Part shown: positions 3,301 to 36,844 of the stretch, in pieces | How positions within the stretch are numbered: position 1 is the stretch's first letter | Layout of the letters: each line of letters opens with the position of its first letter | Source: Proteromonas lacertae | Lineage: Eukaryota | Direction of reading: 5' to 3' | DNA: 51,960 bases | NCBI GenBank assembly: GCA_002245135.1 | Contig: NGBS01001203.1 | Location: 1-51,960, forward strand | Position numbers and translations under genes: made by a program | Notes under the pieces: generated by a model | What the model was told of the DNA's origin: nothing | Databases searched by the model: none | The model's input: the letters and a program-made list of their open reading frames with translations, nothing else

Positions 3301-6300
3301 ATTGATAAAACCAATCGAAGGAGCTGTTGAAGTGAAGTTTCAGTGTGGAAAAGATGGATCTAATACAATATTAAGATTCTCAAGTAATAATGGTTATATG
3401 TTATATTCAAATTCAAAAATAACAGAAATTAAAAGTTTCTTATATAATGATGGTGTTAAAAGTTGTGAAATATTTCCTTCTTTACCATTTGGAGTTGATT
3501 TTAATCCAACTTATTGTACAATCAATGGATATTTAACCAATGTAGTGAGTGAAATGAAAGAATACACCATAAAATATACAATGAAAGATGGAGAAAGGCC
3601 AATAGAAGATGAAAAGATAAGAATTGGAATTTCTTCCAATTTGATGGAATGTTCTTATGGAGTAGATGATGTAATTGTAATTCCTCAATCACAATCATTT
3701 ATAATCAATCAACCTCATTGTAATGTACCAATTCAAAGTTGTCGATTAAAGAGTGGAGCATTATTTGATAATTTGGTTTTGAATACTTTGATTGGTGAAT
3801 TATCAACAACAGGAATAGCAAATGTTCAGAATGAGAGAGAAATAATTATTGAATTTACTAATTCGAGACAAACAATAGAAACAAAACTGAAATTAAAAGT
3901 AGAATCAGTTTCACCAGCTAAATCTCATCCAATCCAATTCTTCCAATATCCATCCAATCAAATAATGTTTTTAAGTGGAGTATATATTGATGATATAAAA
4001 CCGTCATTTGAAGGAGAGTTGGACGATTGTGAAATAAGTAATGGTGTTAATTTACCAAGTGGAATTACATTAAATCCTACAACTTGTATAATAAATGGAG
4101 TAATGAGTAGTAAACCTTCTGATTCTCAAACAATAGTTATAAGAGGAAAGAATAGTCACAGTAAATCATCCTTCACTTTATTAATTAAATATTATGGAAG
4201 TGATGCAACTGAAGCAAATCCTGGATTTAGAGGATATTATTATAAAGATTATTTTGATGATACAGCCTGTTGTCAACATCATGAAATAACCGATAAAGCA
4301 ATATTGAAATATGTGATGATAAAGAATCAAATAGATTATAAGGATAACTCATATTTATGGCCTGATTTGAGTTATAATTTAGAACAACAACATTCTTTGA
4401 ATTTTTCGTATGTCTCAAATGGGTTTGATCGTCAAATTCAATGGCTGACAAGTGGAAGTTCATGGATGAATACTAGTGGAAGTAGTGTAAAATCATCTCA
4501 AAGTGAAAATTATTGTAAAAGTGACTGTCCATTAATAACTGGATTAGCTGGAAACTATCCTAAAGTATATGGAAATGCATTTATGTATTATGGAAGACCA
4601 AAAACCTCAGCTACATTCAGAGCTGTATTTAGATATAGAAATACAGAATCTGATTATCTTAACAGTATTATATATCACATTCCTGTTGGATTTATGGAAT
4701 ATAATTTCACTTATGCAATTTATCCATTAAATGCTCCAATTCCTGTGAATATTCCAATATTCCATAAATCAATAACATCAAGTAAATATACATCATTTTC
4801 TATATATCCAACATTACCAGAAGGTTTATTATTTAATGAAGGAAATGGAGAAATAAGTGGAAATACAAAAGCAGAATCACCATTAACATCATATTTTATT
4901 ACTGCAAATCCAAATTCAGTTGATAAAATCTCAACAAAAATAGAAATTGGTGTTGAAAGATATGAAGATACATCTACATTTACATGTCCAACAGAAGTTG
5001 AATATATAGTAGGTAATGAAATATCAATACAATGTGAAACAAGTCAATCGAAATTCACTTCAAGTTCATTACCAAGTGGTTTATCATTAGATAAAGATAC
5101 AGGAATTATTTCAGGAAAACCATTAGAAGCTGTTACTGGTTATACAGTAAAGATATATAGATATGGATTAGTAGGAATTTCATCAACTGAAATTACATTA
5201 AATATAAAATCCTCCAATTATTATTTCAGATTAATTTATGAATATGTTGAAGATAAAAATATTGAAATAAAACACAATGATAATACTGAAGTTACACCAA
5301 TTGTGAAAGATAGTCCAAGTTTAAAAGTAGTAGAATATGTAGTGAATGAGAATGGTGGAAATGGAAATTATATTATCAATTTTAAATATCCAGGAAAATA
5401 TATAATCTACAATTCAAAACAAGATATATTATTTGCTAGAGAAGTTAATTTAGATTCACCAGAAATATCACTATGTGTAACTGGAAATGGAATTCCAGTA
5501 ATAGAATATGAAAAGAGTGAATTTATACTAAAAACTGGTGTTGAGTTTTATATTGGTCCAAAAATAACGAATGGAGCTAATATATTCGAAATTGATAAAA
5601 TTCCCAAAGGAATGTATTTTGATTCATTTACAGGAGTGTTATCTGGTGTAATAGGAAAAGAATTTGATGGTGATGAAGTATTAATCCGATGTAGAAATGA
5701 GAATGGATATTCAACTGCAGTTTTATTATCATTAAAACCAGAAAAATGTGCAGGTGTTGTTTTATCTTTAACAATCAATTTCATTGATGAGAATAGTGAT
5801 AATTTAGTGAAATTAGAATCATCAGATATTAATAAAATACTATTTGATAAAACCAATGTTGTTTCAACAACTGAATCATTTTGTGTGGATGAAGGAATAT
5901 ATAATTTACATACAAAATTCTCAAATTCACAATCCTCAGTGAGAGTTGATGTAATTGATACTGAATCCTCTATTGAAATGATTCCTGGAAATAGTAAAGT
6001 ATCAATAATAGCCAACAAACTATATAATGAAGATAATAAATGGTATTATAATGACAATACACAGTCTGATAACTCATGGATTACATCTACTGAAAATACT
6101 GGTTGGATTGAAAGTAGACCAATATCATTTCCAGATAAATCTCCTTCACTAGTAACAAGATATTATAAGAATGTATTTAGTTATTCTAAATCATCTGATT
6201 TAGAGAAATATTTCAAAATCAAGTTTCAATATGAAGGTGGAATGATAATGTATTTGAATGGAAAAGAAATTTATAGATTTAATTTACCAGAAGGAATAAT

Positions 6301-9300
6301 AGATGGTAATACAAATGCATTAGAGAATATTGGATTAAAAGAAGTGAATTTACCACTTCCTTTATCAATTTTATCTTCATCAAATATATTAGCAGTTGAA
6401 ATTCATAAAGTCCAAGGTGATGTTACTGTGAAGGACAATTTTAATATTGATTATCAATTTATTCAAATCAATGAATGTGTAAGTAAACCATTATTGAAAG
6501 TAGAGTCAATCAAAGCATTTGGTAATGTGAATGGTGATATTGGTGAATATCAATTAACATCTGAAGAAATATCCAAACTAATAGATGATTCAACATCAAC
6601 CAAATTGAGTTTTGATATGAGAAGAAATAGTCATATAATGAATACTTGGATAGAAATAACATTTAAAGAAAAGATATTATTCAATAATTATATATTATCT
6701 GCTCCAAGTACTGGGTTATTAAACTCATTTCCAATCGATTGGGATTTATATGGAAAGAATGGTCAAAATGAATGGAAATTACTTCATGAGATAAGAAATA
6801 ATGTAGAACCAGTTTATAATGAAAAATTACCATTTTATATTCCTAATAATGATGTAGAATATGAAACATATTTATTTAATTTCACTCGTCGAGGTGTATC
6901 TGGTGATTATTTATCTCCTGAATTTACAATAGCTGATTTTATTCCTCAATTATGTAATTATCAAAGTTATTGTTCTAATTCAAATATACCAATGGGTAAA
7001 ACAATAATCTCAACCTGTGGTTATGGATTACAATCTGATGGTAAAACTGATTCATCAGAACCAGCTCGAATATATACAACATGTAGAAATGAAATAGGAA
7101 ATGCTGTTCTTGAAGAATCAACAGGAACAAGTTGTTCATTAAAGAGATATTGGTTTGGTTGTTCGTCTGAAGTAGAAGAAATATATGTGGGTGATGAAAT
7201 TAATAAACAATTATGTTTTATAATAATTAATGGAGATTTTACTATTTCTTACCAACCACAATTACCTGAAGGTTTAAATATTGATGGAAATGGATTATTA
7301 AATGGAAATGCAGTTCAAACTACTCCCAAAGTTAATACAAAAGTTACAATAACGTCAAGTGGAAATTATCTAGAAAATGAAAGAGTGAGATTTGATTATA
7401 TAAAATTGAAAGTGAATGGTCCAAGTTGTTCTGTTGAGAATAGTTGGCCAGAAACAGAAGTTGGTCATGTAGCAGAATTATATTGTGATGAAGGAAGTAA
7501 TAAGAATAAAGAATTTATGAAAAGAAAATGTGAATATGATAAAGATAATAAATCTGCAAAATGGTCGGATTATATAAATGAAACTGAATGTAATAATGGA
7601 GATGTATATCTTTCAACCTATCCAAATGTTGTTATTACTCATGAATTTAGTTCAGATATATCTTCAATCACACCAGAATCTGCATATATTACTAAAAGTG
7701 GTAAAATACTTACAGTCAATAGTAGTGTGGAAATAATTCAAAAATTCGAAGTTGGACTAAGTGATTCATTAAAACACAATGTTTATGTGAGTGTAGTGAG
7801 AGATGTAGGTAAATGTAGTTATGGTGTGGAATATATTAGAATTTATCCAATTGAAATAGATTTAGAATTAAAATGTGATAAAAAACCATCCTATTTATTA
7901 GTGGAAAATCTACCAAATGGATTGAGTGTAGATGGAAATGGAAGAATTAGTGGTATTATTGAAGATCCAACTGAGTATGAAGAATATAAAACGATAATCA
8001 CTTATATAATAGATAAGAAATATCGAATAGTATTGAATTGGTATAAAAAGACAAAAGAAATGTCAAATGGATTAGAATTTATAAATTTTGCAGAATCTGG
8101 GCAAGATGGATTGAGTGATTCAGTTTTTCAAAATACTCAATTGAAAGATATTTGGTCGAAATTTGAAAATGGAGTATATAAAATTCAAGAAAAGAAATTT
8201 ATTACTACTTCTTATGTGAATTTAGCATCATGTGTAGATTGGTGGAATCCATGTCAAAATGGAATAGCAAGAATGAGAGGATATATAAAAATAGATGAAG
8301 ATAAAAGTTATACATTTACAGGTAGATCTGATGATAGACAGAAATTTGCATTTAGAAATTATGAACAACAAAGATACAATACAGCAAACTGGCAGGATAT
8401 TGGAAGTTATACAGTCGAATTGAAAAAAGGATATTATGTAATTGGTTATTTGACATGGTATGGTGGTGGCGCAAATGATTTTCAAGCTTATGTTGATGGA
8501 AATCAATTAGATGGTAGAATATTTAGTGGTGGATTTTTACTTTCTCACTTGTCATATAACACATTATTTGTTCATTCTAATAAAGATGATAATATTAATC
8601 TTATTCCTAGTTTCAATGGAATTGTCTCAGAATGGGAAATAACTCCATCAATTGATGGATTATCAATTAGAAAAGATGGAGTAATAGAAGGAGTAATTTC
8701 AACATGTAATAATGATTATAAGTTAGTTGTTGTTCAATCTATTAATGATATAGATTTATGTAAATCATCAACAGAATTTCAGCTTCACTGTTTTGATAAA
8801 TCATATTCAACTATTCAAAATGGTTTAATAGTGAAATACTTTGTCTTACAATCAGTTGATATTAATCACAATATTGATATATCTACAATGAAAGAAGAGA
8901 ATTTGAGATTAGAAAGAATCGAAGATAATATTTATCATGATCAAAGTGAAGAATTATGGAATGCTTTACCAGATGAATTAGGTTATTCATTTGTAGCTGA
9001 ATATAAAGGATATCTTAGAATTAATTCTCAAATGAGTGGAAATATGAAAATATCTTTGGAATGTTATGATTATTGTAGATTAACATTATCAAGTTTGAAT
9101 ATAGAATGTTTAGGTTTTGGTTATCATAAACAATCATCAGATATTAGTTTAAGTGAAGGTAATTATCCAATTGAAATAATATATGGAAAAGGAGATTTTG
9201 ATAAAACCAAATTATTAAAAATCTATTATTCCAAAGATAGTGTGAATGAAACGCCAATCCCTCAATCATCTTACTTCTATAATCCTGAATATCCTATATT

Positions 9301-12300
9301 ATATAATCCAATTAAAACTATGTATTATAATGATTCAAATATATCAATTAATCATCCGTTTAAATCAAATACATTTATAAAAGATGTAACAAACGCTAAA
9401 TATTCAATTACTCCTTTACTCCCTGAAGGATTATCATTGAACGAAGATGATGGATCAATAAGTGGAACAACAGCATTAATTGATGATAATACAAATTATA
9501 TAGTAAAAACAGAATGGAATGATGGAAGTTATTATTATTCATCATTTTCTTTTTCAATATTACCAAAGAATGAAGCAATAATTGAATATTCAAGTAATTC
9601 ATTCGAATATGGTATTGGCGATAATATTAATATATCACCAACTAAGATGAAATGTGATTATATTCATGCATTAGGTTTGCCAAATGGAATATCGATTGAT
9701 AGAAATGGTTTGATAAGTGGAATAGGTAAATTTGCATTTGATAAAAATGTTGAAATTGATTGTTTTACATATAAGAAATATAGTGTTACTATTCATTTAA
9801 CTGTTGTGGCTTGTGCTGGAGGAAAAGGATTTTTTGAATTTCAATATTTAATTCATTCCAATCCTGAATTAGTCAGTTTTAAAATATATCCATCAAATAA
9901 TATTAGTAATGTGATATTTGAAGATACAAATAATTCAACATTACAAATTGAGAAAGAATATTCTTTTCATCAATGTGTTGAATATGGAAATTATAAATTA
10001 GAAGTAAAAACCAAATCTCCAAAAGGTGGTTGGTATAAAATATTCTATGAAGATGAGAATATATATCAATTTAAAGAATTTGAGATTGATATTTTAACAG
10101 AATTTCCAATCAAAAGTAGTTATGAAAAGCCAATAATTCATTATGAAGAAAATAATGTGTTATATTTCAATGAATATGAAAAGTCTGTCTATCCAAATTA
10201 TATTGAAAATGGTTTGAGTATGATGAATATAAAAAGTGGTGTATTACCAAATACAATCAAATTAGATTATAAAACAGGCGTATTATCAGGAACATTACCT
10301 TCAAATTCTGCAGAAATAAAATTGGTAATAGAGATGAGAAATACATTCAGTAAAGAAAATAGTGTAATAGAAATAACATTAAAATATGAAAAATGTCTAA
10401 TGGAAGTAAAAATATCTTTATTGGCAAGAAATTTACAAAGTGATAGAATTGATAATATATTATGTGAATTTAATAAAGAATATTATAAATATGAATTATT
10501 TTCAACTATTACAAATGGACTTCAATATAAAACAATGTGTTTAGAAGAAGGAAATTATATAGTAAAATTAGGAAGAAGTGATAATAGTAAAGACGCTTGG
10601 AAGTTTAGTGAATTTGTAATAAGTATAGTTGATGGTGGTGATGTATTTCGAGATAATTATCGAGGAGGAGAAATGAATGTGTTGAATGTGAATTTAAAGA
10701 ATTATTTCAAAAGTAGTGATGAATTTAAATACAGTGATGTAAATCCAACAAGTATAGATTGGTTAGAAGGCAAATCAATAGAAGAATGGAAAGATGTAAA
10801 TGGTGTAGAACCATTAAATGGAGTGAAAGAAAGATATTATATAAAGAAAATCGAATTTAAAGAATCAACAAATAATTTAACATCATTTTATATTCGAATG
10901 AAATATTTCGGCAAAGTGATTTTATATATGAATGGAATGAAATTCTATGAAACTAATCCAAACTATGCTATTGCTACTTCTGCGAATGATTTTGAATATT
11001 ATAAGATAAGTGGATCAATCAGTTTACTAGAAAGATATAATTCTAACTATTTAGGAATAATATATGAGAATATTTATGAATTATACTGGAGTTGATATAA
11101 TTGAATTGAAAGAAATGATTTTAATATCTGGAATTGATTCTTGTAGTTATTCAATCTATGAAGATTATGATAATAGTTATGTGTATGAGAATATAGCAAG
11201 TGTTAATAATACTCAGTATCATGAACCAGTGTATAATGCATTTAAACATTTAACGAGATGGATCAAAATCAACATGGCAGTATGTGAATATAAGTCAATT
11301 AATTCAATTTGGAATGAATTTTCTAACTATGAATCAAAATGGTTTAATGGAGTAATAATCAAAACAGGAACTACAAAAGATAGATATGCAGTAGATTGGA
11401 AATTGAATGTAAGAATAAATTCCACCACTCAAAAGACAATAATTGAAAGAAATGGAGATAATCAAGATGTATTTTGCCAACTGGATATGTAACCAAGTAT
11501 TTTTCATCTGATAATAATGATGATTATATGAGTTATAATGGAATTGAATTATATATAAGTAAACATGGAATTGATGGATTTGAAACAACAGAAATCTCTC
11601 CATTAAGTTGTAAAAATTCTTGTTTTAAAGAAAGTGAATGGAAATCAATATCAAAAGGAAAGACTAATTATGTATTATGTGAAAATAATAAAGCTGGATT
11701 TAAATCTCGAAGATGTGGTGAAGATTTAGAATGGGAAAATGAAAATGATAGTGAATGTATTGATGCTTTGTTAGATTTAGAAAATGAATGGGAATATTCA
11801 AATGTATATCATAATTCTCTTTGGACTGATATGAATTATTATGATGATATAAAATGGAATAAATATAGAATAAATGAATTTCCAATGAAAACCAAAATTA
11901 CTTCATATTATAAAACCAATTTGACAATTGATAAAGATTTAAATGTAATTGGAATTCCTGACATGTATGTTCGATATGAATGTGGAATAATGATATTTAT
12001 GAACAATAAAGAAATTTATCGAAATAACATGCCAATAGGAGAAATCAATGGAGAAACGTATGGATTAAATACCGAAAATGGATTGATATATAAGAAAATC
12101 TCAATTCCTGCAACTGTAATTCAAAGTGGCTTGAATGAAATAAAAGTAGAAATTCACAAATGTGAATCTAGTTTAAAGAATGAAATCGATATATTTTCAT
12201 TAACAATATCAAAAACAACAATATCTTCTAGTGGATTGAGTGTATGTAAAAGTATAGATCCAATTCCATCAATGTTTGAAGGTGGTGAATATTTTGACAA

Positions 12301-15300
12301 ATGTGAAGGAGATAAAATAGGAAAAAGAAAGATGGTATGTGAGAATAGTGGTAAATGGAGTGAATTTGATAATAGTGAATGTGTTGAATCAATACTAAAT
12401 TTGAATAGTTTATGGGAATATTCAAGTGAAGACAATGTTGAATCAAATTGGAATAATGAGTATTCTAATGATTGGCCAGAATATAAATTCAAAGAATTCC
12501 CAATTAAAACCAAAACCACTACCTATTATCGAAATGAATTTAAAATATCAGAATCATTAAATGAGTTTGGTCATCTTGAATTAATAATTCGATATAAATA
12601 TGGAATAATGATCTATATAAATGGAAATGAAATATTTCGACGAAATATGAATAATAATGGTATAACAAGCAGTGATAAAGCTATAAAATCGTTTATTGGA
12701 TTAACAGAAGAAAGAATCTCAATTCCCTCTAAATTGATAAGATATGGAAATAATAAGATAGGAATCGAAATTCATAAATGTAATCAAAGTTCATTATCTC
12801 AAATTGATTTCTTTTATGTGACATTAACAAAGACAGAAAAGATTAGTTTCAAGTGTATTAATAACTCCCAAAGATGATATTGATTATTTATTAAAACCTA
12901 TAAATCCTAACACTAATATAGAAGAAAAGGAAGGAATAAAAGACTTTGATAATATAGAAAGTATGGTAAAATATTTAGCTGCTTCAGCTTCAACTGAAAA
13001 AATGTATTTCCATTTTCAATAATATTTACATTTCGAAATCATGAAGCAAGATATTTCAATCAATTTGAAATAAGTGGTTGTACAAATGATTTTAATACTC
13101 ATCCAAAACATATAAATATATTTGGTTCAACAGATAGTGATAATCCAAATTGGATAGAATTATATAAAAATGAAGATTTAGGATTAAGTAAAAATGATTG
13201 TAGAGATAAATTCACATATTCATTACCAGTTTTAAAATCATTTGAATCAATAAAATTTGAAATACGTGCAGTGTATAGTTTTAATGGTTGGATTCAATTT
13301 CGATTATTAACATTTAATGAAATTCCAGTAATTGCTTGTCCTGCTATTAATGAATATCCATCAATATATGGAAATGAAATAGCTAATATAACATGTTCTG
13401 GAAGAGGTTATAAAACTCGAAAATGTAATGAAAATGGTGTTTGGAGTGGAACAATCGATTTGAGTAAGTGTGAAGAAAATATCTTATATTTATCGACTTA
13501 TCCATATACATCAAAGAGTATTAGTTTTGATCAAAAGATCTTATCTGTAACACCAATAACATCCTATTTTAGTTATAATGAGAGTAGTTTAACCTTAATA
13601 AGTAATAGTAGTGAAGAATTTGTGAATAAAATAACATTGAAATTAGAAAATGAAAAATCGTATTTTGTATATGTGAGTGTAATTCGAAGAGAGATTGAAT
13701 GTAATTATGGAGTTGATTATATTCGAATATATAATATGTATTATGATTTAAAATTGATATGTAACATAAATCCATCTGATATAATAGTAGATGGATTACC
13801 TGATGGTTTAATTGCAGATGAGAATGGAAGAATAAGTGGAATGATAAAAGATGCAACAGGTGTAGATCCAATAACAACAACAATAAGTTATGAATGTGAT
13901 AAACATATATCAATTAGATTAGAATGGTTAAGAAAAGAGAAAGATTTAACTTTTGGATTAGAATTTATAAATCAAAATGAATCAAATCAAGAATCTGGTC
14001 AAAATGATCTTGGAGGTCATAGTTGGAAAGAGTATTATGAAATGTTTGATAATGGAACATATAAAGTGTATGATAAATCAACAATTACATCAACAGAAGT
14101 AATTACATCAGTAGCAGATTCATCAAATTGTAATAATGATTGGTGGAATCCATGTTTTAATGAACTTGCTCGAATGAGAGGATATTTATTTATAGATTCT
14201 GATGGATCTTATCAATTTGGTGGATGTGGAGATGATGATGAAATGATGGCATTTATAAAGTTTGATAAAGAAGTTTATAGATATAATTATGGACAATGTC
14301 AATCATTTACATCAACATATGAGTTGAAAAAAGGATATTATCCAATTAGTTATATTCATTGGAATGGTGGCTGGCGGTAATTATTTCAAAGCTTATATTA
14401 AGAAATCAGGAAATGAAAAAACAAATTTAGATGGAAAAATATTTAGTGGTGGATTTATTTTATCTCATTTATCATATGGAACAAACACAATAGAATATAA
14501 TGAAGGAATAAATCAAATAATTTTACCTAATTATGATGGTATAATATCTGATTGGAAAATGGAACCTTCAATCGATGGAATAACTATTCGAAAAGATGGT
14601 GCAATAATTGGATATCCTACAAACTGTGATGATGAATTTAAAGCCTTTAGTATAAGTTCAATAAGTGATATTAATATAACCAAATCCACTTCAAAAATGC
14701 AAATGATTTGTCACAGTAATAATAATAATAAAGATAATAAAAAGAAAAATGGATTATTAGTAAAATATTATATAGGTGATGAAATAAATGTAGATTCGTT
14801 TATCGAACCAACTATGATAGTTGGATCAAAACTGATGATATATCGAATAGAGAAAGAAAATATATATCACAGTGAAAGTGATAATATATGGACAGGATTA
14901 TTATTAACAATGTCTGAATTATTTGTAGCAAAATATAGTGGTTATATAAAAATACCAGATGGTGGAAGTTATTCATTTAAATTGAAATGCTATGATTATT
15001 GTCGAGTCAAAATTGGAGATGAAGAAATAGAATTGACTGGAAGTGGATATCATGAAACTACAAAAGAAATAACATTATTATCAGCAGAATTATATAAATA
15101 TGAGATGAATTATGCCAAAGGAGTTGGTTTAAGAAAACAATTAGAATTAGAATATTCAATAGGTGGAAGTTCATATACTATAGTTCCAAATGATTGGTTA
15201 TTTGTAGATAATCCATATCCATTTGTTTATCAATCAATAATCAATCATTATATTCAAGACCAACCAATAGATGATAATATTTTAGTTTCTTATATGTCAA

Positions 15301-18300
15301 ACAGTGATAATTTCAATTATTCAATATATCCATATTTACCACTTGGAATGTTATTTTCTGAAAATGATGGTAAAATAAGTGGAACTCCATCAGTGAAAGA
15401 TGATGAAAGAAAATACCTAGTAAGAATAAATGATAAAAATAATGGTGATGAGTATTATAGTGAAGTAATAATCTCCAGTATCTGAGAATGTTAAAGCCGA
15501 ATTAAAATATGAAAGTGAGTTAATATGTAAAATTGGTGAAGAATTTGAATTTATTCCAATAAAGAATACATGTGAAAGACTGAAAATACTAGAAAAGAGT
15601 GAATTTGTATCAATAGATGAAAATGGTAAAATAAGTGGAAAAAGTTTAGGCGTATATAATGGCTCAATAAAAATGGAATGTATAACATTAATAGAATCCA
15701 AAGTGATTGAATATAATTTGAAAGTGAAAGGATGTGAAAATGAAAAAGAATTTTTAATACTGGAATATTTAATCGAAAGTGACAGTGAAAGTGTATCATT
15801 CGAAATAATAAATGGAGATGAAAGTTTGTATAAAAGTGATAATTCAATAACAATAAATACAATGCATAGTTATATGGGATGTATAAAAAGAGAAAATAGT
15901 AAACTGATAATAAAATCAAAATCTTATTTAGGAGGATGGTATAGATTATATTATGAAAACTACAATCTATTTAAATCAAATTCCTTTTTCAGAGATGAGA
16001 TAGTTGATTTAATAATGATAGAAAATCCATCAATCCTCAAATGAAAAGCCTGTATTAAGTTATAATCCATCTAATTTCGAATTGGTGAAAGGAATAGAAT
16101 ATGAATTTTATCCATCGATAGAAAATGGAGGTAAAATATTTGAAATAGAAAATGAGAATGAAATTCCAAATGGAATGAAAATTGATAAAATAAATGGTTT
16201 AATATCTGGAAGAATAGAATCTGATATAGTTGGATGAATAAAGTGATTAGAATATCTGTAACAAATACAAACAACAACATGACGAGTGAAAAATTAATAA
16301 TCATTTTTTCTTCAATTGAATGTAAATTTTCTTTGTTTGAAGTAAAACTGAAAATTCACGAAGATGATTTGAATTTCATTTCTTATTCAATGAAAAGTGA
16401 TAAGAAAGAATATAAACTGTTTAATAGGAAAGTTGGTGATAATAAAAGAGAATTTTGTGAAGATATAGAAAATGTGAAAGTGGAATTAGGACGAGATGAT
16501 GGAAATAAAGACGCTTGGAAATTTAGTGAATTTGTAATAAGTATAGTTGATGGTGGTGATGTATTTCGAGATAATTATCGAGGAGGAGAAATGAATGTGT
16601 TGAATGTGAATTTAAAGAATTATTTCAAAAGTAGTGATGAATTTAAATACAGTGATGTAAATCCAACAAGTATAGATTGGTTAGAAGGCAAATCAATAGA
16701 AGAATGGAAAGATGTAAATGGTGTAGAACCATTAAATGGAGTGAAAGAAAGATATTATATAAAGAAAATCGAATTTAAAGAATCAACAAATAATTTAACA
16801 TCATTTTATATTCGAATGAAATATTTCGGCAAAGTGATTTTATATATGAATGGAATGAAATTCTATGAAACTAATCCAAACTATGCTGTTGCATACTTCT
16901 GTGAATGATTTTGAATATTATAAGATAAGTGGATCAATCAGTTTACTAGAAAGAAATAATTCTAACTATTTAGGAATAATATATGAGAATATTTATAATT
17001 ATGCTGGAGTTGATATAATTGAATTGAAAGAAATGATTTTAATATCTGGAATTGATTCTTGTAGTTATTCAATCTATGAAGATTATGATAATAGTTATGT
17101 GTATGAGAATATAGCAAGTGTTAATAATACTCAGTATCATGAACCAGTGTATAATGCATTTAAACATTTACGAGGATGGATCAAAATCAACATGGCAGTA
17201 TGTGAATATAAGTCAATTAATTCAATTTGGAATGAAATTTTCTAACTATGAATCAAAATGGTTTAATGGAGTAATAATCAAAACAGGAACTACAAAAGAT
17301 AGATATGCAGTAGATTGGAAATTAAATGTAAGAATAAATTCCACCACTCAAAAGACAATACTTGAAAGAAATGGAGATAATCAAGATGTATTTGCAACTG
17401 GATATGTAACCAAGTATTTTTCATCTGATAATAATGATGATTATATGAGTTATAATGGAATTGAATTATATATAAGTAAACATGGAATTGATGGATTTGA
17501 AACAACAGAAATCTCTCCATTAAGTTGTAAAAATTCTTGTTTTAAAGAAGGTGAATGGAAATCAATATCAAAAGGAAAGACTAATTATGTATTATGTGAA
17601 AATAATAAAGCTGGATTTAAATCTCGAAGATGTGGTGAAGATTTAGAATGGGAAAGTGAAAATGATAGTGAATGTATTGATGCTTTGTTAGATTTAGAAA
17701 ATGAATGGGAATATTCAAATGTATATCATAATTCTCTTTGGACTGATATGAATTATTATGATGATATAAAATGGAATAAATATAGAATAAATGAATTTCC
17801 AATGAAAACCAAAATTACTTCATATTATAAAACCAATTTGACAATTGATGAAGATTTAAATGAAATTGGAATTCCTGACATGTATGTTCGATATGAATGT
17901 GGAATAATGATATTTATGAACAATAAAGAAATTTATCGAAATAACATGCCAATAGGAGAAATCGATGGAGAAACGTATGGATTAAATACCGAAAATGGAT
18001 TGATATATAAGAAAATCTCAATTCCTGCAACTGTAATTCAAAGTGGCTTGAATGAAATAAAAGTAGAAATTCACAAATGTGAATCTAGTTTAAAGAATGA
18101 AATCGATATATTTTCATTAACAATATCAAAAACAACAATATCTTCTAGTGGATTGAGTGTATGTAAAAGTATAGATCCAATTCCATCAATGTTTGAAGGT
18201 GGTGAATATTTTGACAAATGTGAAGGAGATAAAATAGGAAAAAGAAAGATGGTATGTGAGAATAGTGGTAAATGGAGTGAATTTGATAATAGTGAATGTG

Positions 18301-21300
18301 TTGAATCAATACTAAATTTGAATAGTTTATGGGAATATTCAAGTGAAGACAATGTTGAATCAAATTGGAATAATGAGTATTCTAATGATTGGCCAGAATA
18401 TAAATTCAAAGAATTCCCAATTAAAACCACAACCACTACCTATTATCGAAATGAATTTAAAATATCAGAATCATTAAATGAGTTTGGTCATCTTGAATTA
18501 ATAATTCGATATAAATATGGAATAATGATCTATATAAATGGAAATGAAATATTTCGACGAAATATGAATAATAATGGTATAACAAGCAGTGATAAAGCTA
18601 TAAAATCGTTTATTGGATTAACAGAAGAAAGAATCTCAATTCCCTCTAAATTGATAAGATATGGAAATAATAAGATAGGAATCGAAATTCATAAATGTAA
18701 TCAAAGTTCATTATCTCAAATTGATTTCTTTTATGTGACATTAACAAAGACAGAAAAGATAATTTCAAATGTATTAATAACTCCCAAAGATGATATTGAT
18801 TATTTATTAAAACCTATAAATCCTAACACTAATATAGAAGAAAAGGAAGGAATAAAAGACTTTGATAATATAGAAAGTATGGTAAAATATCAAGCTTCTA
18901 CTTCAAATACAAATGATGTATTTCCATTTTCAATAATATTTACATTTCGAAATCATGAAGCAAGATATTTCAATCAATTTGAAATAAGTGGTTGTACAAA
19001 TGATTTTAATACTCATCCAAAACATATAAATATATTTGGTTCAACAGATAGTGATAATCCAAATTGGATAGAATTATATGAAAATGAAGATTTAGGATTG
19101 TCAGATAACAATGGTTGTCCAAAGAAATCAACATATTCATTACCAGTTTTAAAATCATTTGAATCAATAAAATTTGAAATACGTGCAGTTTCTAGTTTTA
19201 GTGGTTGGATTCAATTTCGATTATTAACATTTAATGAAATTCCAGTAATTGCTTGTCCTGCTATTAATGAATATCCATCAATATATGGAAATGAAATAGC
19301 TAATATAACATGTTCTGGAAGAGGTTATAAAACTCGAAAATGTAATGAAAATGGTGTTTGGAGTGGAACAATCGATTTGAGTAAGTGTGAAGAAAATATC
19401 TTATATTTATCGACTTATCCATATACATCAAAGAGTATTAGTTTTGATCAAAAGATCTTATCTGTAACACCAATAACATCCTATTTTAGTTATAATGAGA
19501 GTAGTTTAACCTTAATAAGTAATAGTAGTGAAGAATTTGTGAATAAAATAACATTGAAATTAGAAAATGAAAAATCGTATTTTGTATATGTGAGTGTAAT
19601 TCGAAGAGAGATTGAATGTAATTATGGAGTTGATTATATTCGAATATATAATATGTATTATGATTTAAAATTGATATGTAACATAAATCCATCTGATATA
19701 ATAGTAGATGGATTACCTGATGGTTTAATTGCAGATGAGAATGGAAGAATAAGTGGAATGATAAAAGATGCAACAGGTGTAGATCCAATAACAACAACAA
19801 TAAGTTATGAATGTGATAAACATATATCAATTAGATTAGAATGGTTAAGAAAAGAGAAAGATTTAACTTTTGGATTAGAATTTATAAATCAAAATGAATC
19901 AAATCAAGAATCTGGTCAAAATGATCTTGGAGGTCATAGTTGGAAAGAGTATTATGAAATGTTTGATAATGGAACATATAAAGTGTATGATAAATCAACA
20001 ATTACATCAACAGAAGTAATTACATCAGTAGCAGATTCATCAAATTGTAGTAATGATTGGTGGAATCCATGTTTTAATGAACTTGCTCGAATGAGAGGAT
20101 ATTTATTTATAGATTCTGATGGATCTTATCAATTTGGTGGATGTGGAGATGATGATGAAATGATGGCATTTATAAAGTTTGATAAAGAAGTTTATAGATA
20201 TAATTATGGACAATGTCAATCATTTACATCAACATATGAGTTGAAAAAAGGATATTATCCAATTAGTTATATTCATTGGAATGGTGGTGGTGGTAATTAT
20301 TTCAAAGCTTATATTAAGAAATCAGGAAATGAAAAAACAAATTTAGATGGAAAAATATTTAGTGGTGGATTTATTTTATCTCATTTATCATATGGAACAA
20401 ATACAATAGAATATAATGAAGGAATAAATCAAATAATTTTACCTAATTATGATGGTATAATATCTGATTGGAAAATGGAACCTTCAATCGATGGAATAAC
20501 TATTCGAAAAGATGGTGCAATAATTGGATATCCTACAAACTGTGATGATGAATTTAAAGCCTTTAATATAAGTTCAATAAGTGATATTAATATAACCAAA
20601 TCCACTTCAAAAATGCAAATGATTTGTCACAGTAATAATAATAATAAAGATAATAAAAAGAAAAATGGATTATTAGTAAAATATTATATAGGTGATGAAA
20701 TAAATGTAGATTCGTTTATCGAACCAACTATGATAGTTGGATCAAAACTGATGATATATCGAATAGAGAAAGAAAATATATATCACAATGAAAGTGATAA
20801 TATATGGACAGGATTATTATTAACAATGTCTGAATTATTTGTAGCAAAATATAGTGGTTATATAAAAATACCAGATGGTGGAAGTTATTCATTTAAATTG
20901 AAATGCTATGATTATTGTCGAGTCAAAATTGGAGATGAAGAAATAGAATTGACTGGAAGTGGATATCATGAAATTACAAGAGAAATAATATTATCAGCAG
21001 AATTATATAAATATGAGATGAATTATGCCAAAGGAGTTGGTTTAAGAAAACAATTAGAATTAGAATATTCAATAGATGGAAGTTCATATACTATAGTTCC
21101 AAATGGTTGGTTATTTGTAGATAATCCATATCCATTTGTTTATCAATCAATAATCAATCATTATATTCAAGACCAACCAATAGATGATAATATTTTAGTT
21201 TCTTATATGTCAAACAGTGATAATTTCAATTATTCAATATATCCATATTTACCACTTGGAATGTTATTTTCTGAAAATGATGGTAAAATAAGTGGAACTC

Positions 21301-24300
21301 CATCAGTGAAAGATGATGAAAGAAAATACCTAGTAAGAATAAATGATAAAAATAATGGTGATGAGTATTATAGTGAAGTAATAATCTCCGTATCTGAGAA
21401 TGTTAAAGCCGAATTGAAATATGAAAGTGAGTTAATATGTAAAATTGGTGAAGAATTTGAATTTATTCCAATAAAGAATACATGTGAAAGACTGAAAATA
21501 CTAGAAAAGAGTGAATTTGTATCAATAGATGAAAATGGTAAAATAAGTGGAAAAAGTTTAGGCGTATATAATGGCTCAATAAAAATGGAATGTATAACAT
21601 TAATAGAATCCAAAATGCTTGAATATAATTTGAAAGTGAATGGATGTGAAAATGAAAAAGAATTTTTAATACTGGAATATTTAATCGAAAGTGACAGTGA
21701 AAGTGTATCATTCGAAATAATAAATGGAGATGAAAGTTTGTATAAAAGTGATAATTCAATAACAATAAATACAATGCATAGTTATATGGGATGTATAAAA
21801 AGAGAAAATAGTAAACTGATAATAAAATCAAAATCTTATTTAGGAGGATGGTATAGATTATATTATGAAAACTACAATCTATTTAAATCAAATTCCTTTT
21901 TAGAGATGAGATAGTTGATTTAATAATGATAAAAAATCCATCAACCTCAAATGAAAAGCCTGTATTAAGTTATAATCCATCTAATTTCGAATTGGTGAAA
22001 GGAATAGAATATGAATTTTATCCATCGATAGAAAATGGAGGTAAAATATTTGAAATAGAAAATGAGAATGAAATTCCAAATGGAATGAAAATTGATAAAA
22101 TAAATGGTTTAATATCTGGAAGAATAGAATCTGATATAGTTGATGAAAAAGTGATTAGAATATCTGTAACAAATACAAACAACAACATGACGAGTAAAAA
22201 ATTAACAATCAATTTTTCTTCAATTGAATGTAAATTTTCTTTGTTTGAAGTAAAACTGAAAATTCACGAAGATGATTTGAATTTCATTTCTTATTCAATG
22301 AAAAGTGATAAGAAAGAATATAAACTGTTTAATAGGAAAGTTGGTGATAATAAAAGAGAATTTTGTGAAGATATAGAAAATGTGAAAGTGGAATTAGGAC
22401 GAGATGATGGAAATAAAGACGCTTGGAAATTTAGTGAATTTGTAATAAGTATAGTTGATGGTGGTGATGTATTTCGAGATAATTATCGAGGAGGAGAAAT
22501 GAATGTGTTGAATGTGAATTTAAAGAATTATTTCAAAAGTAGTGATGAATTTAAATACAGTGATGTAAATCCAACAAGTATAGATTGGTTAGAAGGCAAA
22601 TCAATAGAAGAATGGAAAGATGTAAATGGTGTAGAACCATTAAATGGAGTGAAAGAAAGATATTATATAAAGAAAATCGAATTTAAAGAATCAACAAATA
22701 ATTTAACATCATTTTATATTCGAATGAAATATTTCGGCAAAGTGATTTTATATATGAATGGAATGAAATTCTATGAAACTAATCCAAACTATGCTGTTGC
22801 TACTTCTGTGAATGATTTTGAATATTATAAGATAAGTGGATCAATCAGTTTACTAGAAAGAAATAATTCTAACTATTTAGGAATAATATATGAGAATATT
22901 TATAATTATGCTGGAGTTGATATAATTGAATTGAAAGAAATGTTTTTAATATCTGGAATTGATTCTTGTAGTTATTCAATCTATGAAGATTATGATAATA
23001 GTTATGTGTATGAGAATATAGCAAGTGTTAATAATACTCAGTATCATGAACCAGTGTATAATGCATTTAAACATTTAAGGGATGGATCAAAATCAACATG
23101 GCAGTATGGAAATATAAGTCAATTAATTCAATTTGGAATGAAATTTTCTAACTATGAATCAAAATGGTTTAATGGAGTAATAATCAAAACAGGAACTACA
23201 AAAGATAGATATGCAGTAGATTGGAAATTAAATGTAAGAATAAATTCCACCACTCAAAAGACAATACTTGAAAGAAATGGAGATAATCAAGATGTATTTG
23301 CAACTGGATATGTAACCAAGTATTTTTCATCTGATAATAATGATGATTATATGAGTTATAATGGAATTGAATTATATATAAGTAAAACATGGGAATTGAT
23401 GGATTTTGAAACAACAGAAATCTCTCCATTAAGTTGTAAAAATTCTTGTTTTAAAGAAGGTGAATGGAAATCAATATCAAGAGGTGAAATAAGAAATGTA
23501 AAATGTGGAATAAATACTGATGCATATAAAACAAGAAAATGTAATGATGATTTAGAATGGGAAAATGAAATAGATGATAGAATGTGTAATGCAAAATGTA
23601 TGAAAGATGTTTATGGTTTAAATATTACAACTAATGCTGGAACAAAAGTAAATATTACTTGTCCAATTGGTATTGATGGAAATTGGATTGCTTATTGTGA
23701 TGCGACTATAAATCCATCATTTATAAGCATTCAAGATAATTGTTATGATGTCAGATATGAAATGATTTATTATATTGAAAAAGAGAATAATATAAATATT
23801 TCTCCAATAATAATAGGAAATATTCCATCATTAGAATTTACATTATTATCAAATCCAAATTACATTAGTATTGATGTTACAAGTGGAATAATTAGTGGAA
23901 GTATTCCTTCAGAAATGACAGATGGAGTAATAAGAATAGAAGTTAATATAAAACCAAGAAATATTAATTATACAATAGATATAGTAGTGAAAAGTGAAAA
24001 TCAGAATAATGACTTTTATCAGTTATTAGTATCAGAGAGTGAAAAAGTTGCAATTGATAAATCAGTATATAATTGATATGGATATTTGGAAAAGTCCAAG
24101 TAATGATGAAATGAAATTCAAAGAGTTGAATGGAAATGGAGAAAATACAAAAATAATATTGAAATATTATCTTCACCAAAATTTCAATAACAGTAATAGT
24201 CTAATAGAAAATATAAAGAATAAAATAATGAAACATATTCATATCAATGTGAATATATATGGATATGATGGTGATTCAAAGATAGAATCAAAATCAATAT

Positions 24301-27300
24301 TTAAATCAATAGAGAACAGTTATTTATATGATATAGAAATGAAAATAGAGGATGATATTGAAATAATAGTTGATAATGATAATAATGAAAATGGATTGTT
24401 ATTTAATTCTTTAACCAATTCCATATTATTACATGTTGGAATAATAAGTGAAAAGTCAGTAAAAATCAATATAAACAATGATAATGTAATATATGGTTTA
24501 ATAAGTGGCAAATTAGATAATGATAATAATAATAATAAAAATGGTGAGAAAGAAATAAGTGGAATATTTGTAAAGGTGAATAAATATTCAATAGAATCAA
24601 GAAATAAGAATGTGAAGAATGGTTTATTATTTGGTGAAGTAAAAGATTTAAAACTCTCTTACAGTTTCATCGATGTAAATGAGATGAGTGTGAATGTTAA
24701 AAGTGGAAGTGTTAGTTTAACAATAGTAAGTGGAATATCAAATAGTAAAATTGAATATTATCGATGTTTTACATTAATTGGAAATACAGTGAATATAGAA
24801 AGTGAAGATGAGTTGTTATTCAGTCCATACTTAAATGAAGGAGAAAATGAATTATTGATTGATGAAAGTTGGAATGAATTGAAAATAGGCAAATTATCTG
24901 GTGAAATTGAGATATTGTGGTTTTAATTGTCTATCAAATACAAATAACAATGAGAATATGAAAATGTTATTATCGAATAGTTATATAAATTATCATTTTA
25001 ATGAAAATCCATCAAAAGCCATAAATGTTTATGTAATATCAAAATATTCAAATTCAAAATCTTCAATTTCAAATATTTATATATCAATCACTTCTAAGAG
25101 TGATGTTTCACTTTCCAATATAAATGGATTTGATTTTAATAAAGATGAAAATGGTTCAAAACTAGATGTAATAGAAAGTGTGTATATAGAACATTCAACT
25201 TCAATCAGTATAACAAATTCATATAATGATGAAAGAATAAAGATAGTTAATGAAAATGACAGTGATGTGAGAGAAAAACCATATAAATATCTAAATGGAT
25301 TTTATACAATAGATTCAAAATTATACTATTCGAAAATGATAAAGTATAATGGAAATAAACTGGATAGATGAATATGGAATATTTGAGAATGTGGATATTA
25401 CATTTAGAAATGATAATTCAATTGAAAAACCATCAACAATCAAGTCAATATGGATAAGGAATGAAGATCCTTATAGTTTTATTTACACAATCAAACCATA
25501 TTCACTATATTTCTTATCAAAAGAATCCCAAGAAGTTACAATCTCAGTATCATCATCAACATCTGATTGTATTTCATTTGATTCTAAATCAATTGTTTTA
25601 ACATCTCCACTTCAAATCAATTATCAATCTAATAACAAAATTGCAATGAATATAGACAAATGTAATAACAAAGCATATTCTAATCATGAAATAGAAATAA
25701 AAGGTTCAGGAAATAGTTATACACAGTCATTAACATTAGAAATAATAAATGATGAAATTAAACCAGAATATGAAACAGATATGAAAGATAATATAGACTT
25801 AGAGAGTGGATTTTATATTCAATTTTCATTACCATATCCATCAAAAGTAGAATTAATAAATGTAATGAATAAAGATAAGAATGAAGAATCAAAAGAATTA
25901 ATAGTGGATGAATGGATCATGTTGAAATGAAATATGAACTGGATAATTATTTATATAAAATGAACTTGAAAAGTGGAAATGTTTCAATTCCAACAAATGT
26001 AGAGTTTATATTGAATGTGATATTTGATAATAATGGCTATAAGATGAAAGAATATAATTATTCCTTATCTACCACAATTCAACCAATATGTGCATATTCA
26101 TTTAATTATAGTGAAAATAATATATTAATAAAAGGTGAACAATTTTCAATATCTCCTGAATATGAAGGATATGGAGGTGTATTTTCTATTATAGATCAAT
26201 CTACCAAATCTTTATTAGAATCTATAGGAATAATGTTTGATGAAAAGAGTGGAATATTTTCAGGAATACCAAATCAATACACTTGAAGAAATTGAAATCG
26301 AAGTAAAAATGAAGAATTATAAATATGAATTTAATACTAAACTGAAAATAGAAGTAATATACCCTCCACCAAATCAATTGAAATATGAAAATGAAAGTTA
26401 TGAAATAATATTAAATGAAATATTTGAAATAAAACCATCTGAATGGGATGATAAAGTAGAAGCAAAGTTTTCATATGAATCGAATATAAATCTGGAAGAT
26501 TATAATATAACATTGAATAATGAGAATGGTATAATAAGTGGAATTCCAACAGAATTATTAAATAGAACTGAAATCAGAATAATATTGAAGAATAGAGGAG
26601 GAAATATATCATTTATATTGAATTTGTCAATTACATATCCACCATTGTCAAGAATAAGTTATGATAAAGAAAAGATAGGAGTATTAGATGCTTATTTTGA
26701 ATATAAACCAAATTATGAACATCCAGATCCTTCAGTGAAATATAAAATGAATAAAGAAGATTTAAATATTTTGCGTGATGCTGAGTTGACATTTAATGAA
26801 TCCAATGGAATAATAAGTGGATTTCCAATTATTGAAATAAATAAAATGTTGAAAATAAAGATAACAAGTGATAATGATAAAGAAGGAATAGAAATAGAAA
26901 TATCAGTCATTATTAACACATTACCTCCTGAAGTATATTATGAAAACTCAACCATGAAAGTATATTATAATGTTTCATTTATTTACAAACCAATTTCAAT
27001 TGTAATGAAACAAAATATATATTTTGTAAGTGAAGAAGATGAAAAAATATTAGAAGAATACAATATGAAATTGAATAACAAAACAGGTGAAATCTCAGGA
27101 AAACCAATGAAATTAACAGATAAAACAAAAGATGTGATTATAAGAATAAACGTGAATAATACAGTTGGTTCAAATTCAACAATTTTGAAAATAGTGGTAG
27201 TTTATTCCCCACCAACAGTTTTAGAATATCCTAAAGATAATTTGAAGATATTTGTAGATGAAGAATTTGAGTTAAAGCCATGCAAAGTAGTGGGAGAAAT

Positions 27301-30300: not shown

Positions 30301-32798
30301 AGGAGTTAATTTGCATTTACTTAAGAATGATGGATTTCCAGAATTAGAGAGCAAAAGATTAGGTAATATGAAAAACATAACGAATTTAGTATTAGCCTCA
30401 ACTGATAAAACTAATACACCATTGAGAATAATGAAATATGCAAATAATTCAAATATATTCAGACTTGATATTTCATTATACAAACAACATAATGGAAATA
30501 GAAGAAAATATAACAATAATAAAAATAGAAGAAAGTTGCAATATTAATGATGATGATTATAAGATAATCGAATTATTTGAAATAAAAGAATGTGGAATAT
30601 TTGGTGATTTAATAAATGTGAGAATGCAAAACATATACATAAGAATCTATGATACATTAGAAATCAAATGTAATGGAACATATGGTATTTTAGCCAATAC
30701 AATAGTTAATTCAACATTAAAGAATATAAAAATCGAATTTTTCAATTCCAATACAAGACATATGTATGTATATAGTAATTATGGTGATAAGTTTGGAATA
30801 TTGTGTGGAAATGCAATTAATTCATCATTTATAAATGTTCGAATAATTGGTGATTCTTTAACAATAAAACCACAATCAAATGATAAAGATGTAAAAGAAG
30901 ATATGATAACATCTACAATGATAGGAGAATGTGATAACTGTTCAATAGAATTTTCGTTTGTAGAATTATTATCATTAAGAATAGTAAATGAAATTGAAGA
31001 TGATACTACAAGAATAATATTTGGTGGTATATTTGGTTTAGTAAATAATGGATATAATTCAATGAATGTCACATTTGCATTAGTAAGAAAGTCATTATTA
31101 ATAACATCATCTGAAAATAAAGGAATGATAATAATATTCGGTGGATTAGTTGGTTTGATAAAAAATGAAACAAAAGTTGATATTTATTCATGTTGGTATA
31201 AGATGGTTTCAAGTGGAATAAGCAGTAATAGTAAAGAGATGAGATTTGGTGGATTGATTGGTTATTATGAAGATATTAAGAATAATAAGAATAACCTGAA
31301 AATAGAATATTCCTATGTTAGATTTATTATCTCCTACAGATATATAAGTGATATTTATATTGGATTATTCTTTGGATTTGAAAATGAGAATACAACAAAT
31401 CCAGAACTAATGGAATCATTAATCAATAAAAATAATTATGGTTATTCTTCTTATCCATTCATATGTAATTCTGATTCATATTATATAGAACCATTTGCTA
31501 AACCTCCATCTGGAAGATTATTAAATGAAAAAGATCCAGGCGAACCAAATCAATGGCCTTCATTCTGTACAAATAACAGTACATTTTATGGTGATGGTAT
31601 TTATCATTCCTGTTGTTATAGAAATGCATGTAATGAAAAATTAAAATCCTTCAATTACATTTATAGTACAATAGCTGAATTCTATACAAATTATGCTCCA
31701 GCTGAAACACCAGAAGGGCTTCATGATAAATCAACCTTATTTTTGGAAAGAAGAATGTTTTTAACACCATATTCAAGATTATCAAAAAGAAAAGTAGTAA
31801 CAAAGAATTATAAACATTCGAAAGCCTATTTATCAATGAATACAAATGCCGATTGTCCATTCAATTGTAGAGGAAATGGTAAATGTTTGAATGGAAAATG
31901 TGCTTGTTATCGTGGTTATGATGGTGGTGATTGTAGTTTAAGAACATGTCCATATGGAAAAGTGAATGGATTGAATGTTTATATGGAATGTTCTAATCAA
32001 GGAAAATGTAATAGAAACAGTGGAATGTGTGAATGTAATGCTGGATTTGAAGGAAGAGATTGTTCTAGAATGAGTTGTCCAAATCAATGTAGTAATCATG
32101 GAGTATGTCATGAAGTAAAAGATGTAGAATTAGTGGATGGAAGAATAATTCCCAAATTTAGTCGAGATTATAAGAAACTAGATGGACAATTAGTTCAAAT
32201 TTGTATATGTGATGATGAATATGAAGGATATGATTGTAGTTTAAGAAAATGTCCAAGAGGATATTATGAAAGAAGTGATGATTGTGAATCATTCTCTCAA
32301 GATAAACAAACAATAATATTTAACATTACTTCAAATACCCCAAATCTTGGTGAAGGTTTGAAAGTGTTTTTGAGATATACAGATCCATTTGGAATGAAAT
32401 GGTATACAAATGAAATAAGATACAATGTATTGGATGATTGGAAGAAAGAACTATATACATTGCCAAGTGGAATAATTAGTTTAGAAGATATAATGTTGGA
32501 TGAAGATTATGAAAGAACCAAAATAGAGATAGTATATTCAAAACATCAAACAGGAAGACAAATTCCAATTGAAATAATAGGTAAAAAAGAGATAAAGAAA
32601 CATAGAGAAGTATATAATGTAGATAAGATAACAGAATTATTAAATACAGAAATAGTGAAAGTTGAATCAATAATGGATAATACATTACCAGCTACAACAT
32701 GTAGTGACAATGGTATTTGTAATAGTAAGAGTGGATTATGTGAATGTTTTGATGGTTTTGAAGGAAATGCTTGTGATAGAACATTAAATGATTTTTAA
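391..32798 (+). CDS. Giant multidomain secreted/surface protein (galactose-binding-like, F5/8C-like, PA14, He_PIG Ig-like, HRM-like, GLUG-like, C-terminal EGF/mastigoneme-like); composite of about a dozen overlapping + strand ORFs joined across single-base frameshifts
   Basis: ATG 391 (or 379) plus a 28-nt intron at 413-440 gives the signal peptide MKLLLILSLCFANILA in frame with ORF 461..11095. Later + ORFs overlap or nearly abut through 32798, and aligning the repeat copies shows 1-nt indels at those breaks. Recurrent motifs: 'YxDGIxIYxNGxEIYRRNMP...GxNxIxVEIHK', 'LPEGLxxNxxxGxISG' (He_PIG), 'ARMRGY..F...SDD..GGG' (PA14), 'CxxxxxWPxT..C..RKC..W..C' (HRM-like), 'FGGLVG' (GLUG-like). Confidence 0.7.
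413..440 (+). other. 28-nt spliceosomal intron inside the signal peptide of the giant gene
   Basis: GTATATCTAATATCAAAATATCTTTTAG; removing it joins ATG 391 in frame to the 3544-aa ORF, which otherwise starts at a TTG. Confidence 0.8.
10589..23480 (+). repeat. Intragenic tandem duplication, unit about 5.9 kb, about 2.2 copies
   Basis: Anchor AAAGACGCTTGGAA(G/A)TTTAGTGAATTTG at 10589, 16507 and 22415 (periods 5918 and 5908). Near-identical translations (13271..14380 vs part of 17118..21914). The third copy diverges after about 23480. Confidence 0.95.
27209..28890 (+). repeat. Intragenic tandem duplication, 843-bp unit (281 aa, three Ig-like domains), two copies
   Basis: CCACCAACAGTTTTAGAATAT at 27209 and 28052; the peptide 'DIKFRLESKETDIFDKY...LESYGLKFNK' occurs twice identically. 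Confidence 0.95.
31854..32798 (+). other. Sig1/Ocm/Mas (tubular mastigoneme protein)-like EGF module
   Basis: CPFNCRGNGKC..GGDCSLRTCP..MECSNQGKCNRNSGMCECNAGFEGRDCSRMSCPNQCSNHGVC..CICD..GYDCSLRKCPRG, then a non-Cys insert with LRYTDPFGMKWYTNEI and a final CSDNGICNSKSGLCECFDGFEGNAC. This matches the architecture of stramenopile mastigoneme proteins. Confidence 0.7.
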
Positions 32799-32886
32799 AT
32801 TATTATTATTATTATATGAATTACTAAATAAAAATAAAAATATTGTTGGATTAATGAATAATAAAACAACAAAATAAAGAATTAAT

Positions 32887-36800: not shown

Positions 36801-36844
<44 letters not shown>

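What the first reader, a model, noticed from the sequence alone, without database searches (positions are those of the whole stretch)
30438..32798. Mastigoneme (Sig1/Ocm/Mas-like) module as the C-terminus of a roughly 10,800-aa lectin/Ig protein
Seen: the last 315 aa or so have the EGF-EGF-EGF-insert-EGF pattern with a 'YTDPFGxxWxTxxI' insert. No TM helix or GPI-like hydrophobic tail is visible, and ORF 30438 has no signal peptide of its own and overlaps the upstream ORF. Known: this family builds the tubular hairs of stramenopile flagella, and Blastocystis lacks flagella but has a fibrillar surface coat. Inference: a flagellar-hair subunit reused as a polymerising or anchoring base that displays a very long adhesin.
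Basis: partly seen in the sequence, partly recalled or inferred. Interest (0 to 1): 0.75.

Follow-up and report, generated by a model that had tools for sequence, protein, structure and literature searches.

The report
Flagellar-hair module ends a giant adhesin
A protist gene ends in a true building block of the stiff flagellar hairs of stramenopiles, and this block is likely the tail of one huge secreted protein of about 9,000-11,000 residues, which it would tie into a hair-like or coat polymer while predicted sugar-binding arms point outward.

Summary
The module is real. The last 317 codons (31845-32795) match all six chains of the tubular mastigoneme structure 9UFE (best E 3e-26; teneurins 5e-9). 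The non-EGF insert alone also matches the family, and tenascin-like proteins do not. In the same frame it follows a predicted GLUG/M26-type beta-helix; an independent relative (P0026, 35% identical) has the same pair and reads further upstream. The 10,800-aa protein is inferred, not seen: 391-32798 codes without a gap but needs 17 frameshifts. Repeat copies show such breaks are mostly single extra bases, none is an intron of this organism's type, and the only intron creates the only signal peptide. One gene with assembly errors is likely (about 70%); no reads could test it. A 5.9-kb tandem repeat makes the length uncertain. Verdict: new variant of a known family; anchoring by co-assembly is untested.

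The parts
391..412 (+). First exon; with the next exon it gives a 16-residue signal-peptide-like start
   Evidence: 8-residue hydropathy 3.15
413..440 (+). 28-nt GT-AG intron, the only intron-like segment in 391-32798
441..11095 (+). Unbroken 3,550-codon frame: He_PIG Ig repeats, PA14-like domains, two other repeated beta-domain types, HRM-like Cys modules
10566..23585 (+). Tandem repeat of a 5.9-kb unit (10566-16483, 16484-22391, partial 22392-23585), 98% identical; holds 11 of the 17 frameshifts
24030..25371 (+). First beta-helix-like segment, weakly similar to the second; broken by frameshifts
   Evidence: E 0.007, 24% over 149 aa
26234..30547 (+). ORF with 13 tandem He_PIG-like Ig domains (about 26366-30022) and a Pro-rich linker (about 30044-30091)
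   Evidence: (E 1e-17)
30434..30547 (+). Junction: +1 frame change, no intron-like segment, at most 40 nt of non-coding character
30585..31337 (+). Predicted GLUG / M26 N-terminal type beta-helix; no HExxH motif in any segment of the chain
   Evidence: (Z 18.4, rmsd 4.2, 264 aligned to 7uvk_A)
31845..32798 (+). Tubular mastigoneme (Ocm/Mas/Sig) module, EGF x3 - insert - EGF, ending at TAA; no membrane anchor
32292..32690 (+). Family-specific non-EGF insert
   Evidence: 24.7 bits; 0 of 1000 shuffles reach it, best 5.5

Best explanation
The last 317 codons encode a tubular-mastigoneme module that is likely the C-terminus of one giant secreted protein starting at 391, and that would hold this protein on the cell surface by co-assembling into a hair-type polymer. 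Shown: family membership, same-frame fusion to a predicted beta-helix, no membrane anchor, a single intron near the 5' end. Inferred: the 17 frameshifts are assembly errors; the spliced N-terminus takes the chain into the ER, where the EGF disulfides form; the module joins paralogous subunits as the six chains of 9UFE do; the Ig spacers and PA14-like domains then project as a long glycan-binding arm. Whether the polymer is a surface coat of a cell without hairs or a body or flagellar hair depends on the organism, which is open.
For: Family: the six best of 14 PDB matches are 9UFE chains, E 3e-26 to 3e-20, teneurins 5e-9; a profile of the window's own clade covers positions 4-281 of 284 on 9ufe_BA, E 5e-39; insert-only profile built without the window's clade scores 24.7 bits, 0 of 1000 shuffles, and 15 of 15 long EGF-repeat proteins score under 0 or nothing. 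One gene: a coding model runs 569-32796 with 17 frame changes, 12 of them +1, and no intergenic stretch; a variant finds the neighbour gene's ends and introns but at most 40 nt at the junction; against open-frame repeat copies the broken copies have 14 distinct single extra bases and 2 missing (one more missing base at 21902); 1 intron-like segment in 32.4 kb against 26 candidates, some overlapping, in the next 10 kb. P0026, best of 3,381 hits (E 5e-106), has beta-helix plus module and about 160 more residues before the matched part, with no signal peptide. P0132 (3,049 aa), P0025 (2,650 aa) and the L036 frame (2,862 codons) are unbroken long proteins ending in the module.
Against: No reads or transcript cover the junction, so it is not directly tested. 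Joining the frames raised the match to P0026 from 125 to 148, but 52 of 300 shuffles did as well, and P0026 has no significant match to ORF 26234-30547 (best E 0.41). The Cys module at P0026's start fits the window's modules only weakly (9 of 500 shuffles; 78 of 500 with C and W fixed). Repeat copies A and B show no purifying selection (pN 0.0084, pS 0.0057), which fits errors but also decay. Six frameshifts lie outside the repeat and cannot be checked against a copy. No relative carries both He_PIG/PA14 and the module among the 150 listed. PA14 hits are below cut-off.
Confidence: 0.5

Rival explanations
1. One giant gene, but the module is a passive disulfide-rich cap, a stalk or a cleaved piece; the protein is shed or held by a partner, with no hair-like polymer.
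For: The window's clade has a long branch (1.09) apart from all other members, so it may have lost the polymer interface. The W after EGF1 seen in the other four rows is Y here, and the clade has an extra Cys after EGF3. The family's EGF domains resemble tenascin matrix proteins (PMC5756292 passage).
Against: The whole module with insert and last EGF is kept in the window and in P0026, P0032, P0036, P0039, P0049, P0076 and P0150, and the chain has no other anchor.
Confidence: 0.2
2. The frameshifts are real and the locus is a decaying or partly expressed gene; only the first 3,560 aa are made, and the module is the relic end of an ancestral giant.
For: 17 breaks; pN at or above pS between copies A and B; breaks cluster in the duplicated part.
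Against: Single extra bases outnumber missing ones 14 to 2, the bias of uncorrected long-read consensus (own knowledge); frames of 3,560, 1,599, 1,437 and 787 codons have no stop at 26% GC; some triple insertions restore the frame within 20 nt.
Confidence: 0.15
3. 30438-32798 is a separate gene (beta-helix plus mastigoneme module) next to an Ig/lectin gene.
For: It has its own Met and overlaps the upstream ORF; the cross-junction test was not significant. A short hydrophobic Met-started frame lies at 30126.
Against: No signal peptide for a 25-Cys module, no intergenic room, no intron-like segment to bring in an upstream exon; the 30126 frame stops after 12 codons inside coding DNA; P0026 reads on upstream; the upstream ORF would end in an N/K/R-rich tail with no anchor.
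Confidence: 0.12
4. The C-terminus is a generic tenascin/teneurin-type EGF cluster.
For: Pfam names only EGF_TEN, EGF_Teneurin and EGF_2; long EGF-repeat proteins rank high by summing many repeats.
Against:: the insert is specific to the mastigoneme family and absent from 15 of 15 such proteins.
Confidence: 0.03

Closest known systems
Tubular mastigoneme proteins of stramenopiles (PDB 9UFE chains, named 'Tubular mastigoneme protein', OCM3, OCM5, OCM6; PnMas1-3; Sig1 by recall)
   Same: EGF x3 - insert - EGF over the full length of the single-module chains BA and EA; no membrane anchor here.
   Different: The 9UFE chains are 209-748 aa; in BA and EA the module starts at residue 17-18. Here it lies behind at least 469 residues and likely about 10,000, in a long-branched AT-rich clade.
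Unnamed giant proteins ending in the module (P0132, P0025, L036 frame)
   Same: Long repeat arm first, module last, stop right after the last EGF.
   Different: Other arms (Big_9/HYR-like or Cys-rich repeats; a shared domain just before the module that recalls ZU5), no beta-helix, and a different clade in the tree (FastTree only, no one-clade test).
GLUG / M26 IgA1-protease N-terminal beta-helix (7uvk_A, 7jgj_A, 3n6z_A)
   Same: Predicted fold of 30438-31844: Z 18.4, 17.4 and 15.4, rmsd about 4.2 over about 264 residues; Atlas features point to GLUG.
   Different: Model pLDDT 48.9 overall, about 70 in the core; no HExxH in the chain, so no sign of a protease.
PA14/GLEYA lectin adhesins with Ig stalks (yeast Flo/Epa, large bacterial adhesins; recalled)
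   Same: PA14-like heads, He_PIG spacers, signal peptide; an Asp-Asp pair lies in three PA14-like domains (seen; its expected place is recalled).
   Different: No GPI, TM or LPXTG anchor; the mastigoneme module stands where the anchor would be.

Membership tests
Tubular mastigoneme proteins (Ocm/Mas/Sig) | Three N-terminal EGF-like domains and one terminal EGF with conserved Cys spacing | tested here: met
   (22 invariant columns in 70 rows)
Tubular mastigoneme proteins (Ocm/Mas/Sig) | Family-specific insert between EGF3 and the last EGF | tested here: met
   one search aligns through it to 9ufe_BA
Tubular mastigoneme proteins (Ocm/Mas/Sig) | Secreted, with a signal peptide | tested here: inconclusive
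   None on ORF 30438; a signal-like start exists at 391 and counts only if the chain is one gene
Tubular mastigoneme proteins (Ocm/Mas/Sig) | Same fold as the 9UFE chains | tested here: inconclusive
   Model too poor (pLDDT 52.5, pTM 0.29); fold searches uninformative
Tubular mastigoneme proteins (Ocm/Mas/Sig) | Located in a tubular hair, co-assembled with paralogues | not testable with these tools
   needs localisation or EM
Tubular mastigoneme proteins (Ocm/Mas/Sig) | Confined to flagellate stramenopiles (as stated in 10.64898/2026.09.11.750887) | tested here: inconclusive
   Organism not established; no genome held; neighbour gene has no close named relative
Tenascin/teneurin EGF proteins | Long uninterrupted EGF run without the insert | tested here: not met
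   Four EGFs with an insert; EGF_TEN 61.1 bits under cut-off 65
M26 IgA1 proteases | HExxH zinc motif in a catalytic domain | tested here: not met
   0 HExxH in 18 translated segments
PA14 lectin adhesins | PA14 domain above Pfam cut-off | tested here: inconclusive
   E 4e-5 to 1e-4, 22.4-23.8 bits against 24

The most novel reading that the evidence does not exclude
A gut stramenopile without flagella kept and expanded the flagellar-hair protein family and builds its fibrillar surface coat from it, hanging megadalton lectin/Ig arms on the polymer; related giant proteins in flagellates would be the unidentified fine filaments of the hairs.
Probability: 0.3. Interest if true: 0.8.

Novelty: new variant of a known kind. 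Interest (0 to 1): 0.6.

Why it matters
Stramenopile hair proteins are described as small to mid-sized and limited to flagellate species (10.64898/2026.09.11.750887, passages). Blastocystis is described as lacking flagella and surface hairs (PMC12129017, passages), and in the passages I read its coat is described by sugars, not proteins (PMC5608401). A divergent, expanded clade of the hair module, fused to very long binding arms, names a concrete candidate for that coat or for Proteromonas-type body hairs, and gives direct tests. It also shows that the module can carry large cargo at its N-terminus in at least two separate clades.

Tried and rejected
No genome is held. No sequencing run was listed for 24000-32900, so no reads were laid; this is no evidence either way. 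Two copies of the module in complex prediction gave no verdict (score 0.00, alignment not used). The AlphaFold model of the module was too poor for fold search. A metagenome scan with the ORF found no relative among 75 pattern matches; with the clade alignment it gave 80 loci, none under 34% GC, 2 of 80 with over 500 open codons upstream. The word-index searches cannot see proteins over 2,000 aa. Intron explanations of the junction were rejected: candidates are 88 nt or longer with coding-like GC (0.22-0.24 for the four measured), whereas neighbouring introns are 26-46 nt at 0.07-0.18. The Blastocystis TGTTTGTT element (recalled; described in PMC12129017) occurs only twice in the window. The PNP neighbour did not name the organism: one unnamed relative at 88%, named hits at most 49%. 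The Atlas gave nothing useful for the 182 residues before the junction. The IQ-TREE run did not finish; FastTree was used on 123 rows (the window, P0026 and 121 of 200 candidates), after dropping near-duplicates and rows that did not span EGF2 to the insert. I found no paper on the 9UFE structure and none on such proteins in Blastocystis; the library lacks most subscription papers. No supplement was read; domain tables in the supplements of PMC12129017 and PMC5608401 could bear on novelty.

Full report
Observation. ORF 30435-32798 (787 codons stop to stop) overlaps ORF 26234-30547 by 113 nt in the +1 frame. Its last 317 residues hold three EGF-like domains, an insert with YTDPFGMKWYTNEI and a last EGF before the stop. 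No stretch reaches transmembrane hydropathy in this or the other 12 ORFs of the chain. The Met at 30438 has no signal-like core.

Family. Of 14 PDB sequences matched, the six best are the six chains of 9UFE, named tubular mastigoneme protein, OCM3, OCM5 and OCM6 (E 3e-26 to 3e-20); teneurins follow at 5e-9. A profile of the window and eight close relatives aligns over positions 4-281 of 284 with 9ufe_BA, E 5e-39. To exclude a mere EGF match I built a profile of the insert alone from 63 rows outside the window's clade: the window's insert scores 24.7 bits, none of 1000 shuffles exceeds 5.5, and 15 of 15 long EGF-repeat proteins score below zero or not at all.

The rest of the ORF. Residues 1-469 point to GLUG-type proteins in the Atlas (weak by that tool's own measure) and fold as a beta-helix whose best matches are M26 IgA1-protease-type helices (Z 18.4, rmsd 4.2, 264 aligned; model pLDDT 48.9). 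There is no HExxH. The best of 3,381 hits in the representative library, P0026 (922 aa, unnamed, E 5e-106), has the same helix and module in one frame at 35% identity. That fusion is thus natural and found twice.

Is it one giant gene? A codon model follows one coding path from 569 to 32796 with 17 frame changes, 12 of +1 and 5 of +2. With cheaper non-coding states it still finds at most 40 nt at the junction, while it finds the ends and introns of the neighbouring gene. A scan for this organism's short AT-rich introns finds one in 32.4 kb, at 413-440, and 26 candidates (some overlapping) in the next 10 kb; splicing that one gives a 16-residue signal-like start from the ATG at 391. Eleven breaks lie in a 5.9-kb tandem repeat; against open-frame copies the broken copies carry 14 single extra bases and 2 missing ones. 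Such a bias is typical of uncorrected long-read consensus (own knowledge). The +1 shift at the junction is of the same kind. Against this: no reads were available, joining the frames did not improve the match to P0026 beyond shuffles (52 of 300), P0026 does not match the upstream ORF, its leading Cys module fits the window's modules only weakly, and copies A and B show no purifying selection. I put one gene at about 70%. The span is 10,792 codons; each repeat unit that proves an artefact takes off about 1,970.

Anatomy if joined. Profiles built from the window's own repeats (seeds match by construction) count 27 Ig-like, 7 PA14-like, 10 HRM-like Cys modules, and 10 and 5 copies of two further beta-domain types that recall galactose-binding and F5/8 folds (those two labels are recalled). 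Pfam supports He_PIG (E 2e-38), PA14 just under cut-off, and HRM (E 9e-5).

Relatives. In a FastTree tree of 123 rows the window lies in a starred clade of 8 with P0026, P0032, P0036, P0039, P0049, P0076 and P0150, all unnamed, several flagged for odd composition. None of the listed members of their clusters carries a name. A second clade holds unbroken giants that end in the module: P0132 (3,049 aa with a hydrophobic start), P0025 (2,650 aa) and the L036 frame (2,862 codons); P0132's end matches 9ufe_BA at E 4e-45. Their arms differ from the window's, so long arms were probably added more than once; monophyly was not tested. Two earlier AI notes describe the module fused to C-terminal fibres in marine flagellates (not checked).

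Organism. The window is 26% GC with real stop codons and introns of 26-46 nt. That fits low-GC Blastocystis lineages and also Proteromonas in the general statistics of PMC12129017 (passages and section 9 read). Blastocystis lacks flagella and hairs (same paper), but Proteromonas has tubular tripartite body hairs made in the ER (PMC11603286, passages). The neighbouring PNP gene did not decide it. The reuse claim is therefore conditional.

Mechanism. Mastigoneme shafts are assembled in the perinuclear ER and gain lateral filaments in the Golgi (PMC2108286, abstract); Mas1 and Mas2 lie in the shaft (10.64898/2026.09.11.750887, passages), and loss of MAS1 removes the hairs in Ectocarpus (PMC13109109, passages). 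9UFE holds six family chains in three copies each. The window's chain has a signal-like start and no other anchor. The most likely working is secretion, co-assembly of the C-terminal module with paralogues into a hair or coat fibril, and display of a long Ig/lectin arm. Family and anatomy are shown; joining, co-assembly and glycan binding are inferred.

Novelty. I found no description of such fusions in ten paper searches; the 9UFE paper was not among the results and no supplement was read. It is a new variant of a known family, interest 0.6; 0.8 if the host proves to be a Blastocystis that builds its coat this way.

Noticed in passing
window 43300-51960: GC rises to 0.30; long ORFs recall an endogenous Polinton-like or virophage element (capsid-like 45557-48057 by recall; Walker A ATPase at 48056-48977, weak terminase/FtsK hits). 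The ATPase and the capsid-like ORF are each split over two frames.
   Followed up: partly
window 39905-40636 and 41002-41733: 732-nt inverted repeat, 99% complementary, 365 nt apart, with intron-like segments on both arms.
   Followed up: no
window 27209-28907: 843-nt tandem repeat of three Ig domains, 95% identical without gaps; pS 0.053 above pN 0.033, so likely a real duplication.
   Followed up: partly
window 38391-39389: Intronless-looking purine nucleoside phosphorylase with a hydrophobic C-terminal tail.
   Followed up: partly
window 36183-37713 (-): Nucleotide-diphospho-sugar transferase gene with short AT-rich introns.
   Followed up: no
L036:130-8718, L077, P0132, P0025, P0151, P0158: A clade of giant proteins with a shared domain directly before a terminal mastigoneme module; candidates for hair filaments in free-living stramenopiles.
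   Followed up: partly
L045, L051, L063, L070, L078: Another set with about 200-285 open codons before the module, ending in a shared Pro/Thr-rich linker.
   Followed up: no
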